Source: Candidatus Saccharimonadota bacterium (GTDB lineage: Bacteria; Patescibacteriota; Gracilibacteria; BD1-5; UBA2023). Taken from it: a stretch of DNA of 32,000 nt. Of this stretch, positions 7,696 through 27,681 are shown piece by piece; the stretch's first letter is position 1; each line of letters opens with the position of its first letter. The stretch is from positions 1,170,001 through 1,202,000 of the forward strand of contig OY970170.1 of assembly GCA_963706795.1 (NCBI GenBank). The letters are read 5' to 3'. The notes under the pieces were generated by a model. The model worked only from the letters and a program-made list of their open reading frames with translations, had not been told where the DNA came from and did not search any database. The position numbers were made by a program, and so were the translations under genes.

Positions 7696-7944
7696 GGGAC
7701 TCCTGTATTGATATCCGCTGTTGTGTTTTTATCTTGCAATAAACTTATCTCCGCTGCAAGTATTGTCAAATGACTAAAATCTTGTTTCGTATAAATAATT
7801 TATACGGAATTCATCCCTTGGGCAAAGGGATTTGATATCTTTTTTTGGCAAAACTTCCTCAAAAGCAGAAATATTCAAAAAACAACTTTTAAAAATCGTC
7901 AATTTGCACAAATTCGACGAAATATTTCTTGAAATCGCAAATAA

Positions 7945-7963
7945 ATATGTACTATGTACATAT
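7945..7963. promoter_or_regulatory. candidate LexA operator (SOS box) upstream of umuD-umuC
   Basis: Perfect 19-bp palindrome ATATGTAC-TAT-GTACATAT, ending 15 nt before the umuD ATG. The same ATATGTAC / GTACATAT arms flank the lexA upstream region at 27621-27651. Confidence 0.55.
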
Positions 7964-7978
7964 AAATAATCAAAACAT

Positions 7979-8329
7979 ATGTACAATCATCCACGTTTTG
8001 TCACAGAACGCCAAGAATGAGAGGGGAGCCTCTCTGATTATCTCGTCGAACACCCCGCAACTGCGATGTTCCATACCATGAAGGGCTCGAGTATGTGCGA
8101 TGTTGGCATATTTGAAGGCGACACTGTCGTAATTGAGAAGGGGAGAGTGCCAAAAGCAGGGGATGTTGTGCTTGCTATTGTGGATGATAGTTATGTGATT
8201 CGCATTTTTGATTTTCATGGGAACAGGCCGATGCTCAGATCTTGAAATCCCGAATATGCTTCGATTATCCCAAGCGAATCCCTCGAGATCCGCTGAGTAG
8301 CCGTCTCTCTGATGCGAAAATATCACTAA
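7979..8329 (+). CDS. umuD: UmuD-like S24 peptidase-fold protein, 116 aa, 3 in-frame TGA
   Basis: Hand translation: ...LSDYLVEHPATAMFHTMKGSSMCDVGIFEGDTVVIEKGRVPKAGDVVLAIVDDSYVIRIFDFHGNRPMLRSGNPEYASIIPSESLEIRGVAVSLMRKYH. This aligns by eye with the E. coli UmuD core (GDSM Ser motif present). TGAs are at 8018, 8243 and 8294. Stop is TAA at 8327-8329. The ORF-track entry on the opposite strand (7970..8341) is an antisense shadow. Confidence 0.8.
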
Positions 8330-8339
8330 ACTCGCTCGC

Positions 8340-9530
8340 ATGATACTTCGAACTTCGACAAAACTCTATGCACATGTCGATTGTAATTGTTTCTTTGTAT
8401 CATGCGAAATACTCCGCGATCCTTCGCTCAGGAATAAATGCGTTGTGGTCTGAGGCGACATTATCATCGCGGCATCTTACGAAGCACGTAAATATGGCAT
8501 CCGAGTCGGTACTCCAAAATGGGAAGCAGAACAAATGCTCGCAGGCAAGCTTATAATTCTACCGCCAGATCTCGGATATTATCGCAGAATTTCCGACGAG
8601 TTTCTCTGATTTTTAGGTGAAAGAAGTCTCTCAGTTGAGCCATTTTCTATTGATGAAGCCTTTTTGGATATTACATGACTTCCAGATCGTTTTACTGAAG
8701 GAGATGTCACCAAATTTACCACTCAGTTACGAGAAGAGGTCAAAAATCGCATCGGGATACCAGTATCAATCTGAGTCGCCAATACTCGCATTAAAGCAAA
8801 AATTTTCTCAGATATTCATAAACCAAATGGTCAGTTTGTGGGTCTCGATGCGAGCGACGAAGCTGAAGTTTTTACAGAGCTTCCGGTACGAGACATTCCA
8901 TTTGTGGGACGTAATACTGAGATCAAGCTTGGTAAGAGTGTTCGAACAATACTAGACTTCAAACAGTTTGGCTTTTTTGAACTTGATCGACTTATCGGTA
9001 AGAATGCAACAACTCTTTGGCTCGAGCTTCATGGTGTTGATGTCTGGCATATGGATCATGGCCGAGGCGGGCGACAGAAGAGTATTTTGAGGTCTCGATC
9101 CTTCAATCACTTCATGACAGATAACAAGCATATTCTCTGGCGATATTTCCTCGCTAATTTTGAAAATGCCTACCGTGAACTCATGGAGCTCGAATGCGAA
9201 ATTGGAGAGGTGAGTGTGCTTTTGCGCTCAAGAGAGCTCGTGAGATCCCGAGCTTCACGAATTTTTGATAGCAGCACCGCAGACAAGCACCAAATCCTCG
9301 AAACCTGCAAAGAACTCATGACAGAAGTCTTTACACCTGGAATATTCTATAGAACCACGGGGATTCTGTTTTCGGGCCTAACGATTGCTAATCCGCGCCA
9401 ACTCTCAGTATTCGATGTCGATAACACTCGATATGAACGCACAATCCGACTCGAGCAAACTCTTGCACAGGTCAATCAAAGATATGGCAAATGATCTGTG
9501 AAGCTTTGAGGAACACTTATTAGTGGATAG
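8340..9530 (+). CDS. umuC: Y-family (translesion) DNA polymerase, UmuC/DinB-like, 396 aa, 6 in-frame TGA
   Basis: Motifs YAHVDCNCFFVSCE, SIDEAFLDIT[TGA=G] and PVSI[TGA=G]VANTRIKAKIFSDIHKPNG. It is in frame with ORF-track 8838..9494. I checked every codon from 8340 to 8838 and found no TAA/TAG. It starts 11 nt after the umuD stop. The first true stop is TAG at 9528-9530. Confidence 0.88.
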
Positions 9531-11286: not shown

Positions 11287-12075
11287 TGTCTTCATAGTGA
11301 GGAAACAGCCAGCTCATTCCATACGAATAATATCAACCGTGTCGCGGTACAATGACTCATATCAGAGCTCTTTACTCATTTCGCGAAGTCGGTTGATGGA
11401 CGAGATGTATCGCATGTTTACGAGCATTCCGAGTAATGCTCTGTCGAGAGAAGTCGCATAACGCTCAAGGAATTTACGAACCAAATAGCCATCTGGATAG
11501 AGTCAGCCAACATGTACAAGAAGCGCGTCTAACAGAGCTGCTTCTAATCCGAGAATTTTAAATTTTTCTCACTGAATCATGTCGATTCGCACGGTCATTT
11601 TTGCAAGTTTTGGGAAGAGATTTCCGCTCGTACGTTTCCCCGCCTCAATAGTTTTGAATACGATTTTGTGCCGTGGAGAGACCTTGAGTATTTTATTAGT
11701 AGACTTTGTATATACAATGAGTATATTGGAAGTAGACATATCTCAGATGTGCATTTCCAGAGCCTTAGGTCAGGCAATGATATATTCAGAATGCACTTCA
11801 CGACGAATAAAGGCGCTCGCAATTTGCCAGTAGTGTGACTCAATAAGTCCAATTGCATCCTTGTTTGATTCGGGTATTCAAATCAAAAAAAGCCCGCTTC
11901 GAAGAGCGAAGATTTGATTCTCAGCCTTGAGTCGGTAGATGGTTTTATATACTTCGCGCTTACCAACCGGACCACGAGTGTTTTCGGGATCAATGATCTC
12001 GAGCATATCCTCCAAAAGTAGAATTTTACTCGGTCTTGCTCACAATTTCTTTACAATTTTGTGAAATTCGATCAT
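11284..12075 (-). CDS. AbiEi-like (type IV toxin-antitoxin antitoxin / wHTH regulator family) protein, 263 aa, 8 in-frame TGA
   Basis: I checked all 264 codons by hand: no TAA/TAG until 11284-11286. The layout resembles AbiEi: N-terminal ...YRLKAENQIFALRSGLFLIG, central YIIAGPKALEMHIGD, and C-terminal KILGLEAALLDALLV. The ORF track shows only an out-of-frame 87-aa piece here. Confidence 0.5.
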
Positions 12076-16726: not shown

Positions 16727-17575
16727 CTACAGAGGTCCGTACCTAGTGAGATATGGACTAATATCAAAGGGTTTGTACATATTTTTGAGATTGTACCAAT
16801 ACCGAAGGCGATAAATGAGCTCCATTTCTTCGAGCAAAAATTCACTCAAAAGCTCATAAACACGATTATCCGATATTTGATGCGTGATGGATATCTCAAA
16901 AATATGCCTTCAAAGATCTGGTCAGGTGAAATCTCAAGTGGGTAAATCAGGTTTACGCACTACGAGGGATGGATGCTTTACACTTGCTTCATCTTTACTT
17001 AGTTTTCAGAGAATGGGATGTCTTCTCATTTGCCAATATTCTCCATATTCTTGTATGTCTTGTGATATGCGCTTGAGCACTCCATCACACTCTTGAATAA
17101 CTTCTTTTATCTGCGGAAAGACCTTATTTATGGCAATATCTCGCTCTTCGCGGGCAATTTCTAGAAGCTCAATGGCTTCTTCGTATGCGATATCGGTAGC
17201 CACATCGATCGCCTCCATCGCAGCAAAAGTCTCTGTAAAATACTGTGAATACTGAGAACTATAGCGAAGTCTTGATATGAGATCTTTTTTTACACCTTCT
17301 TCCTCGACCATCACAAAATTGACCATTTCATCAAATTGATCCTCTTGAATGTTCGCGACCGTGTGCTTAATATAGTCCGAAAGATCGCTTGCAGTGGTGA
17401 CTCCTTCATCAAATGCCGCTGTCAGCGCAGAAATATCAGTGGCAGTGAGCGGTGTACCAAGCGGGGATTCTCATGCAGCAAAGCTGGCAAGATTGTGCTT
17501 GAGAGGCGCGTATGCTTGAACAATATGGTTTTCGAATTCTTTTGTATCAAAAGATCCGGCTACTGAATTTTTCAT
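16727..17575 (-). CDS. hypothetical protein, 282 aa, 5 in-frame TGA
   Basis: ORF-track 17006..17326 extends in frame in both directions once TGA is read as sense. I hand-checked from ATG 17575 to TAG 16727-16729. TGAs are at 17471, 17006, 16934, 16922 and 16910. It is acidic and helical, with no recognisable family. Confidence 0.65.
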
Positions 17576-26970: not shown

Positions 26971-27615
26971 TTAATCAAAATTAAATACATCCACTACCTT
27001 TCCATTAATCTCAATCGAATCCGAATCTGAAAGCACAATCGGTGAGTGCTGTGAATCCTTTGAGTCTGGAAGGAGATAAATACTCTCCCCTTCTTGTTTT
27101 ACTTTTTTGACTGTCGCTGCGCCATTAACGATACAGAGATACGCCCCGAATGGATTATCAACCGCTTTTACACTCGAGTCTACGAGTACATAGGCTCCAT
27201 CCTCAAGCATTTTTCCGCGGATACTAAATGCGTTCATTGATGTACCTTGGAGCTTCACGCAGAAATACTTTTTTTCGTCACCATTGAGTGCACTCTTTGA
27301 GATCAGCAGCTTACCTGCGTCAGCTTCTTCTGCATAGAGAAGTGGTCGACCAGCATTAGCAACCCCAAGAATAGGAATTGGAATTGCAATCTGTGAAGCG
27401 ACAATACGATCTCCGAGGCGGATCGAACGATAGCCTCTTCCACGAGAGATATAGCCCTTGCGTTCGAGGTAGTCCAAAAATTGTACAACCGAGTGCTTGC
27501 TGCGTGCACCGAGAACTTCTTGAATTTCTTCGAGCGTTGGGGATTCACCGTGATTTTCGATGTAGCCCTTCACAATATCAAAGACCTTTTGTTGTTTAGG
27601 AGTGAGCATAGACAT
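26971..27615 (-). CDS. lexA: LexA repressor, 214 aa, no TGA
   Basis: N-terminal wHTH (LTPKQQKVFDIVKGYIENHGESPTLEEIQEVLGARSKHSVVQFLDYLERKGYI). Cleavage-site-like VANAG|RPLL. S24 catalytic Ser in QGTSM and Lys in ATVKKV. Confidence 0.9.
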   Translation of the reverse strand: MSMLTPKQQKVFDIVKGYIENHGESPTLEEIQEVLGARSKHSVVQFLDYLERKGYISRGRGYRSIRLGDRIVASQIAIPIPILGVANAGRPLLYAEEADAGKLLISKSALNGDEKKYFCVKLQGTSMNAFSIRGKMLEDGAYVLVDSSVKAVDNPFGAYLCIVNGAATVKKVKQEGESIYLLPDSKDSQHSPIVLSDSDSIEINGKVVDVFNFD

Positions 27616-27620
27616 AGGTT

Positions 27621-27651
27621 ATATGTACTGAGTATATATACCTGTACATAT
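27621..27651. promoter_or_regulatory. candidate LexA auto-operator: 31-bp near-palindrome directly upstream of lexA
   Basis: ATATGTAC-TGA-GTATATATAC-CT-GTACATAT. The outer arms are identical to those of the umuD palindrome, and the centre GTATATATAC is itself palindromic. It overlaps a possible minus-strand promoter, TTGCAC-N16-TATACT. Confidence 0.5.
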
Positions 27652-27681
27652 AGTGCAAATTTTTATGCACACTTCGCTCTG

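What the first reader, a model, noticed from the sequence alone, without database searches (positions are those of the whole stretch)
7945..7963. A perfect palindrome upstream of umuDC shares its arms with the lexA upstream region: candidate lineage-specific SOS box
ATATGTAC-TAT-GTACATAT lies 15 nt before umuD. The only other place where both arms (ATATGTAC and GTACATAT) occur as a pair is 27621-27651, directly upstream of lexA. Co-occurrence in front of the two canonical SOS targets (lexA itself and a translesion polymerase operon) is the classic signature of a LexA operator.

The core, TGTAC-N3-GTACA, differs from the E. coli (CTGT-N8-ACAG) and Bacillus (CGAAC-N4-GTTCG) boxes. It loosely resembles GTAC-type boxes reported for some other phyla. 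I know of no description of a LexA motif for code-25 lineages.
Basis: partly seen in the sequence, partly recalled or inferred. Interest (0 to 1): 0.62.

Follow-up and report, generated by a model that had tools for sequence, protein, structure and literature searches.

The report
LexA operator of recoded Gracilibacteria
The palindrome in front of the error-prone polymerase genes is very probably where the DNA-damage repressor LexA binds in this uncultivated bacterium that reads TGA as glycine; the same short motif marks lexA, recA and other repair genes in its relatives, so it is a lineage-specific version of a well-known switch.

Summary
ATATGTAC-TAT-GTACATAT sits at 7945-7963, 15 nt before umuD. 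Its 8-mer arm occurs 6 times in the window against 0.68 expected.

The LexA-operator reading holds up on comparative evidence. I built a weight matrix only from lexA promoters of other genera. Its three best hits in the whole 1.27-Mb genome are the lexA, recA and umuDC promoters. In five other genomes, six of seven exact matches lie before recA (twice), umuD, lexA, radA and a photolyase gene. recA promoters carry the motif in 19 of 26 genomes with this LexA and in 0 of 10 without it.

Two corrections:
- The lineage consensus is TATAC-N3-GTATA. TGTAC is a variant of this subclade.

The half-site resembles GTATAC repeats in lexA promoters of other Patescibacteria, which use other spacings. This scan had already noted those in Dojkabacteria, and had noted the recA repeats of this genome.

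No binding experiment exists. The 2017 paper on the Patescibacteria LexA motif could not be read, so prior description is possible.

The parts
7945..7963 (.). LexA operator of the umuDC operon: perfect palindrome ATATGTAC-TAT-GTACATAT (core TGTAC-N3-GTACA)
   Evidence: It is the third best hit in the whole genome (18.1 bits) for a matrix built from lexA promoters of other genera. It is identical in the congener G001 and appears as ATATATAC-TTT-GTACATAT before umuD of G032.
7929..7958 (+). Inferred umuDC promoter: TTGAAA (7929-7934), 18 nt, TATGTA (7953-7958). The -10 guess lies inside the operator.
   Evidence: Read from the sequence. TTGAAA is conserved in G001. The consensus scan did not call this promoter, so it is an inference.
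7977..7984 (+). Third ATATGTAC half-site, overlapping the umuD start codon. Its role is unresolved.
   Evidence: The 13-nt gap to the operator is kept in G000, G001 and G032 although the gap sequence differs. As RNA it can pair with 7956-7964 (dG -7.2, z -2.1).
7979..8329 (+). umuD-like gene, 116 aa, co-linear with processed UmuD'
   Evidence: Peptidase_S24 9.2e-16. Residues 16-113 align to residues 14-112 of E. coli UmuD' (1I4V).
8340..9530 (+). umuC-like Y-family polymerase gene
   Evidence: IMS 1.5e-39 and IMS_C 4.5e-09.
27621..27639 (.). Main LexA operator of the lexA promoter. On the lexA sense strand it reads ATATATAC-TCA-GTACATAT and contains the -10 hexamer.
   Evidence: Best hit in the whole genome (22.2 bits). 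One mismatch from the umuD core. The same layout occurs in lexA promoters of relatives.
27631..27659 (-). lexA promoter: TTTGCA (27659-27654), 17 nt, TATACT (27636-27631)
   Evidence: Consensus scan. TTGCA/TTGACA followed by TATACT is conserved in relatives.
27644..27652 (.). Extra half-site TATATGTAC (sense strand) in the -35/-10 spacer.
   Evidence: The layout [TATAYAC]-N5-[TATATAC]-N3-[GTRYATA] recurs in lexA and recA promoters of family f1. Its function is unresolved.
26971..27615 (-). lexA gene (214 aa; the conserved start ML.. suggests the ATG at 27609)
   Evidence: LexA_DNA_bind + Peptidase_S24. TIGR00498 aligns over the full length at 103 bits. The Ala-Gly site, Ser126 and Lys170 are invariant in 26 orthologues. 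Relatives start at ML.
11708..11726 (.). Borderline matrix hit GTATATACAATGAGTATAT inside a 263-aa ORF on the minus strand. Probably chance.
   Evidence: 16.9 bits, within the range of shuffle maxima (10.3-16.7). It is intragenic, and the ORF has no Pfam family.

Best explanation
The palindrome at 7945-7963 is the operator through which the LexA repressor of this Gracilibacterium, encoded 19 kb away at 26971-27615, shuts off umuDC. A LexA dimer would bind the two TRTAC/GTAYA half-sites, which are separated by 3 bp. The site lies over the likely -10 region, so bound LexA would block RNA polymerase. After DNA damage, RecA filaments would trigger LexA self-cleavage, because the Ala-Gly site and the Ser/Lys dyad are conserved. 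The promoters of lexA, recA and umuDC would then open. In this genome these three promoters form the core of the regulon. Shown here: the sequence, its rarity, its conservation at SOS promoters, and its co-occurrence with this LexA. Inferred: that LexA is the binder, that it represses, the umuD promoter position, and inducibility.
For: (1) A 19-nt matrix was made only from lexA promoters of other genera. Its hits in the 1,267,896-bp genome rank lexA upstream first (22.2), recA upstream second (20.7) and umuD upstream third (18.1). Ten Markov shuffles peak at 10.3-16.7. (2) An unseeded dyad count on 70 Gracilibacteria lexA promoters puts ATAC-N3-GTAT first: 11 observed against 0.2 expected. (3) Exact ATRTAC-N3-GTAYAT in five other genomes gives 7 sites. 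These are recA twice, umuD, lexA, radA (TIGR00416, 457 bits), a photolyase gene (PF00875 + PF03441) and one unknown. The reversed control pattern gave a single place. (4) recA promoters score at least 12 bits in 19 of 26 genomes with this LexA and in 0 of 10 without it. (5) Sites lie before umuD or umuC in G001, G032, G059, G057, G049 and G041, and before a lexA-umuC operon in G018. (6) The lexA site contains the predicted -10 TATACT. (7) LexA has the DNA-binding and S24 domains and invariant cleavage residues.
Against: Relatives are not independent, and many are very AT-rich, which inflates TATA-type matrix scores. The matrix search was seeded with a consensus that I had seen in relatives. 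Seven genomes with this LexA have no recA site. G032 has sites, but no lexA was found in its 94%-complete assembly. Spacing classes N1 and N5 also occur in AT-rich relatives, so the exact geometry is settled only for the higher-GC subclade. Extra half-sites at all three promoters are unexplained. The umuD promoter is a guess.
Confidence: 0.85

Rival explanations
1. The motif is an operator, but for a different regulator that happens to control lexA, recA and umuDC, not for LexA itself.
For: No binding data exist. umuDC sits beside a tyrosine recombinase and is patchily distributed, in 18 of 61 relatives, so it could bring its own control. Some relatives pair umuC with a long LexA-like protein.
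Against: The motif sits in the lexA promoter itself in dozens of species. It is absent from recA promoters in genomes that lack this LexA. The umuC cassettes that carry their own LexA-like partner do not have the motif. The targets in other genomes are the classic SOS set.
Confidence: 0.07
2. The repeats are only promoter material: -10-like TATACT/TATAAT elements and AT-rich spacers of strong promoters, with no repressor involved.
For: The left half-site plus T equals the -10 hexamer TATACT at lexA and in many relatives. TATA-rich sequence is common in these genomes.
Against: The right half-site lies downstream of the -10 and is conserved as an inverted copy. In G000 the halves are TGTAC, which is not -10-like. 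At recA the N3 site lies upstream of the -35. Genome-wide, the three best hits are confined to the three SOS promoters among the genome's roughly 1,100 predicted genes.
Confidence: 0.03
3. The arms act in RNA. The right arm (7956-7964) pairs with the third copy (7976-7984) to hide the umuD start codon, giving translational control rather than transcriptional control.
For: The minimum-energy fold pairs exactly these 9 nt (dG -7.2 kcal/mol, z -2.1). The 13-nt gap is kept in three genomes from two genera.
Against: The same motif occurs at recA upstream of the -35, where it is not transcribed. Half-sites are conserved in sequence across unrelated genes rather than co-varying. With the -10 inside the operator, the right arm would not be in the transcript. 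Seven of 200 shuffles fold as well. This role could coexist with the operator.
Confidence: 0.03

Closest known systems
Bdellovibrio bacteriovorus LexA box TTAC-N3-GTAA (as listed in PMC8565304, introduction)
   Same: Short palindrome with a 3-bp spacer and the same inner core TAC-N3-GTA. It is bound by a canonical LexA (winged HTH + S24).
   Different: The outer bases differ (TTAC against TRTAC with ATA flanks). The organism is unrelated. According to the title of the original study, recalled from memory, canonical SOS genes are not under LexA in Bdellovibrio; here lexA, recA and umuDC are.
GTATAC repeats in lexA promoters of other Patescibacteria (earlier scan note e1-1140321 on Dojkabacteria; possibly the motif of Sanchez-Osuna et al. 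2017, which is cited for a direct-repeat LexA motif in PMC7739468)
   Same: Same half-site letters (TATAC/GTATA), and the same place in the lexA promoter at or after the -35/-10.
   Different: The spacing differs. In 30 other Patescibacteria, GTATAC-N7-GTATAC occurs in 7 and N4 in 4 (up to 1 mismatch), and none has N1, N3 or N5. Gracilibacteria of this order use N3, with N1 and N5 readings in AT-rich members. I could not read the 2017 paper, so whether it covers this motif is unknown.
Cyanobacterial and Gram-positive LexA boxes (AGT-N8-ACT / AGTAYR-type in PMC13416735; GAAC-N4-GTTC from own knowledge)
   Same: GTAC/GAAC-like half-sites in inverted orientation, and canonical LexA.
   Different: The spacer is one or more bases longer. 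GAAC-N4-GTTC does not occur at the umuD or lexA promoters here.
E. coli umuDC and lexA SOS boxes (CTGT-N8-ACAG)
   Same: Same logic: an operator over the promoter of umuDC, recA and lexA, with more than one site at lexA.
   Different: The motif is absent here. The operator is 13-19 bp rather than 16-20 bp, with different half-sites. UmuD here is already UmuD'-length, so transcription may be the main brake.

Membership tests
LexA operator (SOS box), any motif type | Present in the promoter of lexA itself (autoregulation) | tested here: met
   27621-27639 is the best genome-wide hit and contains the predicted -10. Homologous sites occur in lexA promoters of relatives.
LexA operator (SOS box), any motif type | Present upstream of recA and of a translesion polymerase operon in the same genome | tested here: met
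   recA upstream, genome 438107-438125, 20.7 bits; umuD upstream, 18.1 bits. These are ranks 2 and 3 of the genome.
LexA operator (SOS box), any motif type | Conserved at orthologous SOS promoters in other species, and tracks presence of the regulator | tested here: met
   recA: 19 of 26 genomes with this LexA and 0 of 10 without. umuD/umuC sites in six other genomes, plus the lexA-umuC operon of G018. Exact-pattern hits at recA, umuD, lexA, radA and a photolyase gene in five genomes.
LexA operator (SOS box), any motif type | Dyad symmetry fit for a dimer, overlapping promoter elements | tested here: met
   Perfect 8+3+8 palindrome. Overlap with the -10 at lexA. At umuD the overlap rests on an inferred promoter (called none).
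LexA operator (SOS box), any motif type | Bound by LexA in vitro or in vivo; target genes induced by DNA damage | not testable with these tools
   No experiment was possible.
Canonical LexA repressor (protein at 26971-27615) | N-terminal LexA winged-HTH plus C-terminal S24 domain, with Ala-Gly cleavage site and Ser/Lys dyad | tested here: met
   PF01726 1e-13 and PF00717 5.8e-16. A88-G89, S126 and K170 are invariant in 26 orthologues. TIGR00498 aligns over the full length at 103.1 bits, just under the 110.95 cut-off.
E. coli-type SOS box CTGT-N8-ACAG | CTGT and ACAG arms 8 bp apart at SOS promoters | tested here: not met
   With up to 1 mismatch there are 5 matches in the window, none near 7900-7980 or 27616-27680, and fewer than chance.
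Gram-positive (Cheo) box GAAC-N4-GTTC | GAAC and GTTC arms 4 bp apart at SOS promoters | tested here: not met
   6 matches with up to 1 mismatch, none at the umuD or lexA promoters.
Patescibacteria GTATAC-type lexA promoter repeats | GTATAC units spaced N7 or N4 | tested here: not met
   The half-site letters are shared, but in 70 Gracilibacteria promoters the TATAC..GTATA spacings peak at N1, N3 and N5, and the unambiguous GTAC-containing sites are all N3. In 30 other Patescibacteria the spacings are N4 and N7.

The most novel reading that the evidence does not exclude
Within one phylum, LexA kept its half-site (TATAC/GTATA) but changed the spacing of its operator: N7 or N4 in many Patescibacteria, N3 in this order of Gracilibacteria. 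In the window's own subclade it also widened its specificity to TGTAC. That change coincides with a Lys-His-Ser (rather than Lys-Arg-Gly/Ser) start of the recognition helix. Sister orders of the same class use an unrelated GGTGAG-N6-CTCACC palindrome. If so, these uncultivated lineages offer a stepwise natural series showing how a LexA motif is rebuilt. The N3 motif would also be an undescribed LexA-binding motif.
Probability: 0.35. Interest if true: 0.6.

Novelty: new variant of a known kind. Interest (0 to 1): 0.45.

Why it matters
LexA is the textbook case of a regulator whose binding motif has been rewritten many times, with 17 motifs counted in PMC8565304. A further motif in the recoded, uncultivated Gracilibacteria would add a data point that shares its half-site with other Patescibacteria but not its spacing. 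That bears on how such rewrites happen. In practice, the motif allows the DNA-damage regulon to be predicted in metagenome-assembled genomes that cannot be grown. Here the regulon is a minimal set of lexA, recA and umuDC, with radA or photolyase in relatives. It also suggests that error-prone polymerase V is controlled mainly at transcription in this organism, because its UmuD is already in the shortened form.

Tried and rejected
Relatives conserve the N3 site plus a separate upstream half-site.
(2) E. coli-type and Cheo-type boxes are absent at these promoters.
(3) LexA control of nrdAB in the window finds no support. The best matrix score near nrdA is below 5, and the upstream region carries NrdR-box-like repeats instead.
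(4) radA of G000 has no site, and no photolyase homologue was found. The radA and photolyase targets seen in G013 and G017 are therefore not shared.
(5) The other genome hits are either within shuffle range or lack a link to DNA repair. They are 409786, 549077, 1153278, 48463, 310909 and 618449.
(6) An RNA hairpin as the main function is unlikely (and the recA site geometry).
(7) I tried to read Sanchez-Osuna et al. 2017 by PubMed id and by DOI, and it is not held. Full-text searches for LexA with Gracilibacteria, Absconditabacteria or Candidate Phyla Radiation found nothing.
(9) The link between the recognition helix and the GTACA variant rests on a single clade that also has higher G+C. It is a lead, not evidence.

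Full report
**What is there**

The window is G000:C1:1170001-1202000 of a single-contig genome of 1,267,896 bp with 43.5% G+C. Genes read through only if TGA is a sense codon. Public records that encode close relatives of its LexA are titled Candidatus Gracilibacteria, Candidatus Peribacteria or Patescibacteria group.

The sequence ATATGTAC-TAT-GTACATAT lies exactly at 7945-7963, and the next ATG is at 7979. The ORFs behind it are a 116-aa Peptidase_S24 protein (UmuD-like) and a 396-aa IMS/IMS_C protein (UmuC-like). The ORF at 26971-27615 on the minus strand has the LexA DNA-binding domain and the S24 domain.

The 8-mer arm occurs six times in the window against 0.68 expected, and none of 100 shuffles reaches six:
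- three copies at umuD
- two copies before lexA
- one stray copy at 16775

**The unit at lexA**

A one-mismatch copy of the umuD box with the same 3-nt spacer, ATATGTAC-TGA-GTATATAT, lies at 27621-27639. On the lexA sense strand the region reads TTTGCA-N17-TATACT. The -10 hexamer sits inside this N3 site.

**Test with relatives: lexA promoters**

Twenty-six of 61 related genomes encode a clear orthologue of this LexA. In their alignment the Ala-Gly cleavage site, Ser126 and Lys170 are invariant. Their promoters show TTGCA or TTGACA, then TATATAC-N3-GTRTATA, usually about 30-45 nt before the start codon. The same holds in 70 species-level loci from named Gracilibacteria MAGs. An unseeded count of all 4-mer dyads in those 70 promoters puts ATAC-N3-GTAT first, with 11 observed against 0.2 expected.

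**Whole-genome scan of G000**

I built a palindromised 19-nt matrix from lexA promoters of other genera only and scanned the whole G000 genome. The three best hits were:

| Rank | Location | Score (bits) |
|---|---|---|
| 1 | lexA upstream | 22.2 |
| 2 | recA upstream, genome 438107-438125 | 20.7 |
| 3 | umuD upstream | 18.1 |

Ten Markov shuffles of the genome peaked at 10.3-16.7. The next real hits (15.8-16.9) fall in that range. Exact TRTAC-N3-GTAYA occurs 7 times against 1.3 expected, and three of the seven are these promoters.

**Other genes and other genomes**

- recA promoters score at least 12 bits in 19 of 26 genomes that have this LexA.
- They do so in none of 10 genomes that lack it or have only a distant LexA-like gene.
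- G032 is an exception: it has sites, but no lexA was found in its 94%-complete assembly.
- Sites lie before umuD in G001, G032 and G059, directly before umuC in G057, G049 and G041, and before a lexA-umuC operon in G018.
- umuC cassettes that come with their own long LexA-like partner have none.

A strict pattern, ATRTAC-N3-GTAYAT, searched in five other genomes gave seven sites: recA twice, umuD, lexA, radA (TIGR00416, 457 bits), a DNA photolyase gene (PF00875 + PF03441) and one unknown. The reversed control pattern gave one place.

In G000 itself radA has no site, and no photolyase was found. The regulon therefore varies between genera around a core of lexA, recA and the polymerase.

**How it most likely works**

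A LexA dimer binds the two half-sites 3 bp apart and covers the -10 region. This is predicted for lexA. For umuD it is inferred from TTGAAA-N18-TATGTA, which the scan did not call. RecA-stimulated self-cleavage would then lift repression.

At recA the N3 site lies 6 nt upstream of the -35, and two further TATATGTAC copies sit 11 bp apart between the -35 and the -10. Extra half-sites occur at all three promoters. At lexA, and in many family-f1 promoters, the layout is [TATAYAC]-N5-[TATATAC]-N3-[GTRYATA]. Whether these bind a second dimer is open.

The third copy at umuD overlaps the start codon, at a conserved 13-nt distance. It could also pair with the right arm as RNA. With the -10 inside the operator, however, that arm would not be transcribed.

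**Which lineage, and how it compares**

- A second, divergent LexA clade in the same order forms lexA-recA operons and also has TATAC-N3-GTATG in its promoter.
- Six genomes of the same class but of other orders instead show TTGAC-GGTGAG-N6-CTCACC-TATA.
- In thirty lexA promoters from other classes of the phylum, GTATAC units are spaced N7 (7 of 30) or N4 (4 of 30), and never N1, N3 or N5.

The half-site letters are therefore shared across the phylum, but the N3 arrangement is specific to this order.

The TGTAC/GTACA form is found almost only in the subclade whose recognition helix begins Lys-His-Ser. This is one clade with higher G+C, so it is a lead only.

The nearest published geometry I can cite is the Bdellovibrio box TTAC-N3-GTAA (PMC8565304). 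E. coli-type and Gram-positive-type boxes are absent from these promoters.

**Prior art and limits**

Sanchez-Osuna, Barbe and Erill 2017 analysed LexA in the Patescibacteria. PMC7739468 cites that paper for a direct-repeat motif. I could not read it. No held paper combines LexA with Gracilibacteria, Absconditabacteria or Candidate Phyla Radiation.

Earlier notes of this scan flagged the recA repeats of this genome, the double box at lexA, and a GTATAC array at lexA in Dojkabacteria. I re-derived the first two myself. I confirmed the third in outline on other Patescibacteria.

All evidence here is comparative. Relatives are not independent, and AT-rich genomes inflate TATA-type scores.

**Verdict**

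The feature is real and is very probably a LexA operator (0.85). It is a lineage-specific variant of a well-known kind of switch. Interest is moderate, with a real chance that the motif is already in print.

Noticed in passing
window 7979-8329: The UmuD-like protein is 116 aa and co-linear with processed E. coli UmuD' (residues 16-113 against 14-112 of 1I4V). It has no cleavable N-terminal tail. GSSM keeps the Ser, but the position of the catalytic Lys aligns to Arg (YVIRIF). Pol V may therefore be controlled only at transcription.
   Followed up: partly
genome 438120-438360 (outside the window), minus strand: A 77-aa ORF with two CxxC pairs lies directly upstream of recA on the same strand. 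Similar Cys-pair ORFs precede recA in G001, G012, G013, G033 and G020. It gives only a faint HypA-like zinc-ribbon match.
   Followed up: partly
From my own knowledge they look like NrdR boxes. There is no LexA site.
   Followed up: no
genome 604095-604113 (outside the window): TAATATAC-AAC-GTATATAC lies 8 nt before the ATG of a 97-aa ORF with a weak RelB/DinJ-antitoxin match (PF04221, E 2e-4, just under the cut-off). It scores 16.4 bits and is a possible fourth LexA target.
   Followed up: partly
genome 1023457-1023505 (outside the window): A cluster of three arms, GTACATAT-TGT-ATATGTAC plus GTACATATA, lies between a tyrosine-recombinase-like ORF and a small ORF. The spacing is everted (N11), not N3. 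Unexplained.
   Followed up: no
L209-L214 (G091, G117, G141, G163, G203, G062): lexA promoters of other orders of the same class carry TTGAC-GGTGAG-N6-CTCACC-TATA. This is a different conserved palindrome in the -35/-10 spacer and may be another LexA motif.
   Followed up: no
L034, L037, L038, L041-L044: In several relatives umuC follows a 194-243-aa LexA-like or UmuD-like ORF and has no TATAC-N3-GTATA site. These look like self-contained repressor-polymerase cassettes with their own control.
   Followed up: no
window 27609-27615: All orthologues start at ML.., so lexA probably begins at the ATG at 27609 rather than 27615. That leaves an untranslated leader of only about 15-20 nt with no obvious ribosome-binding site.
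   Followed up: partly
window 11697-11726: TAGTAGACTTTGTATATACAATGAGTATAT lies inside a 263-aa minus-strand ORF that has 8 in-frame TGA codons and no Pfam family. It scores 16.9 bits, within chance range.
   Followed up: partly
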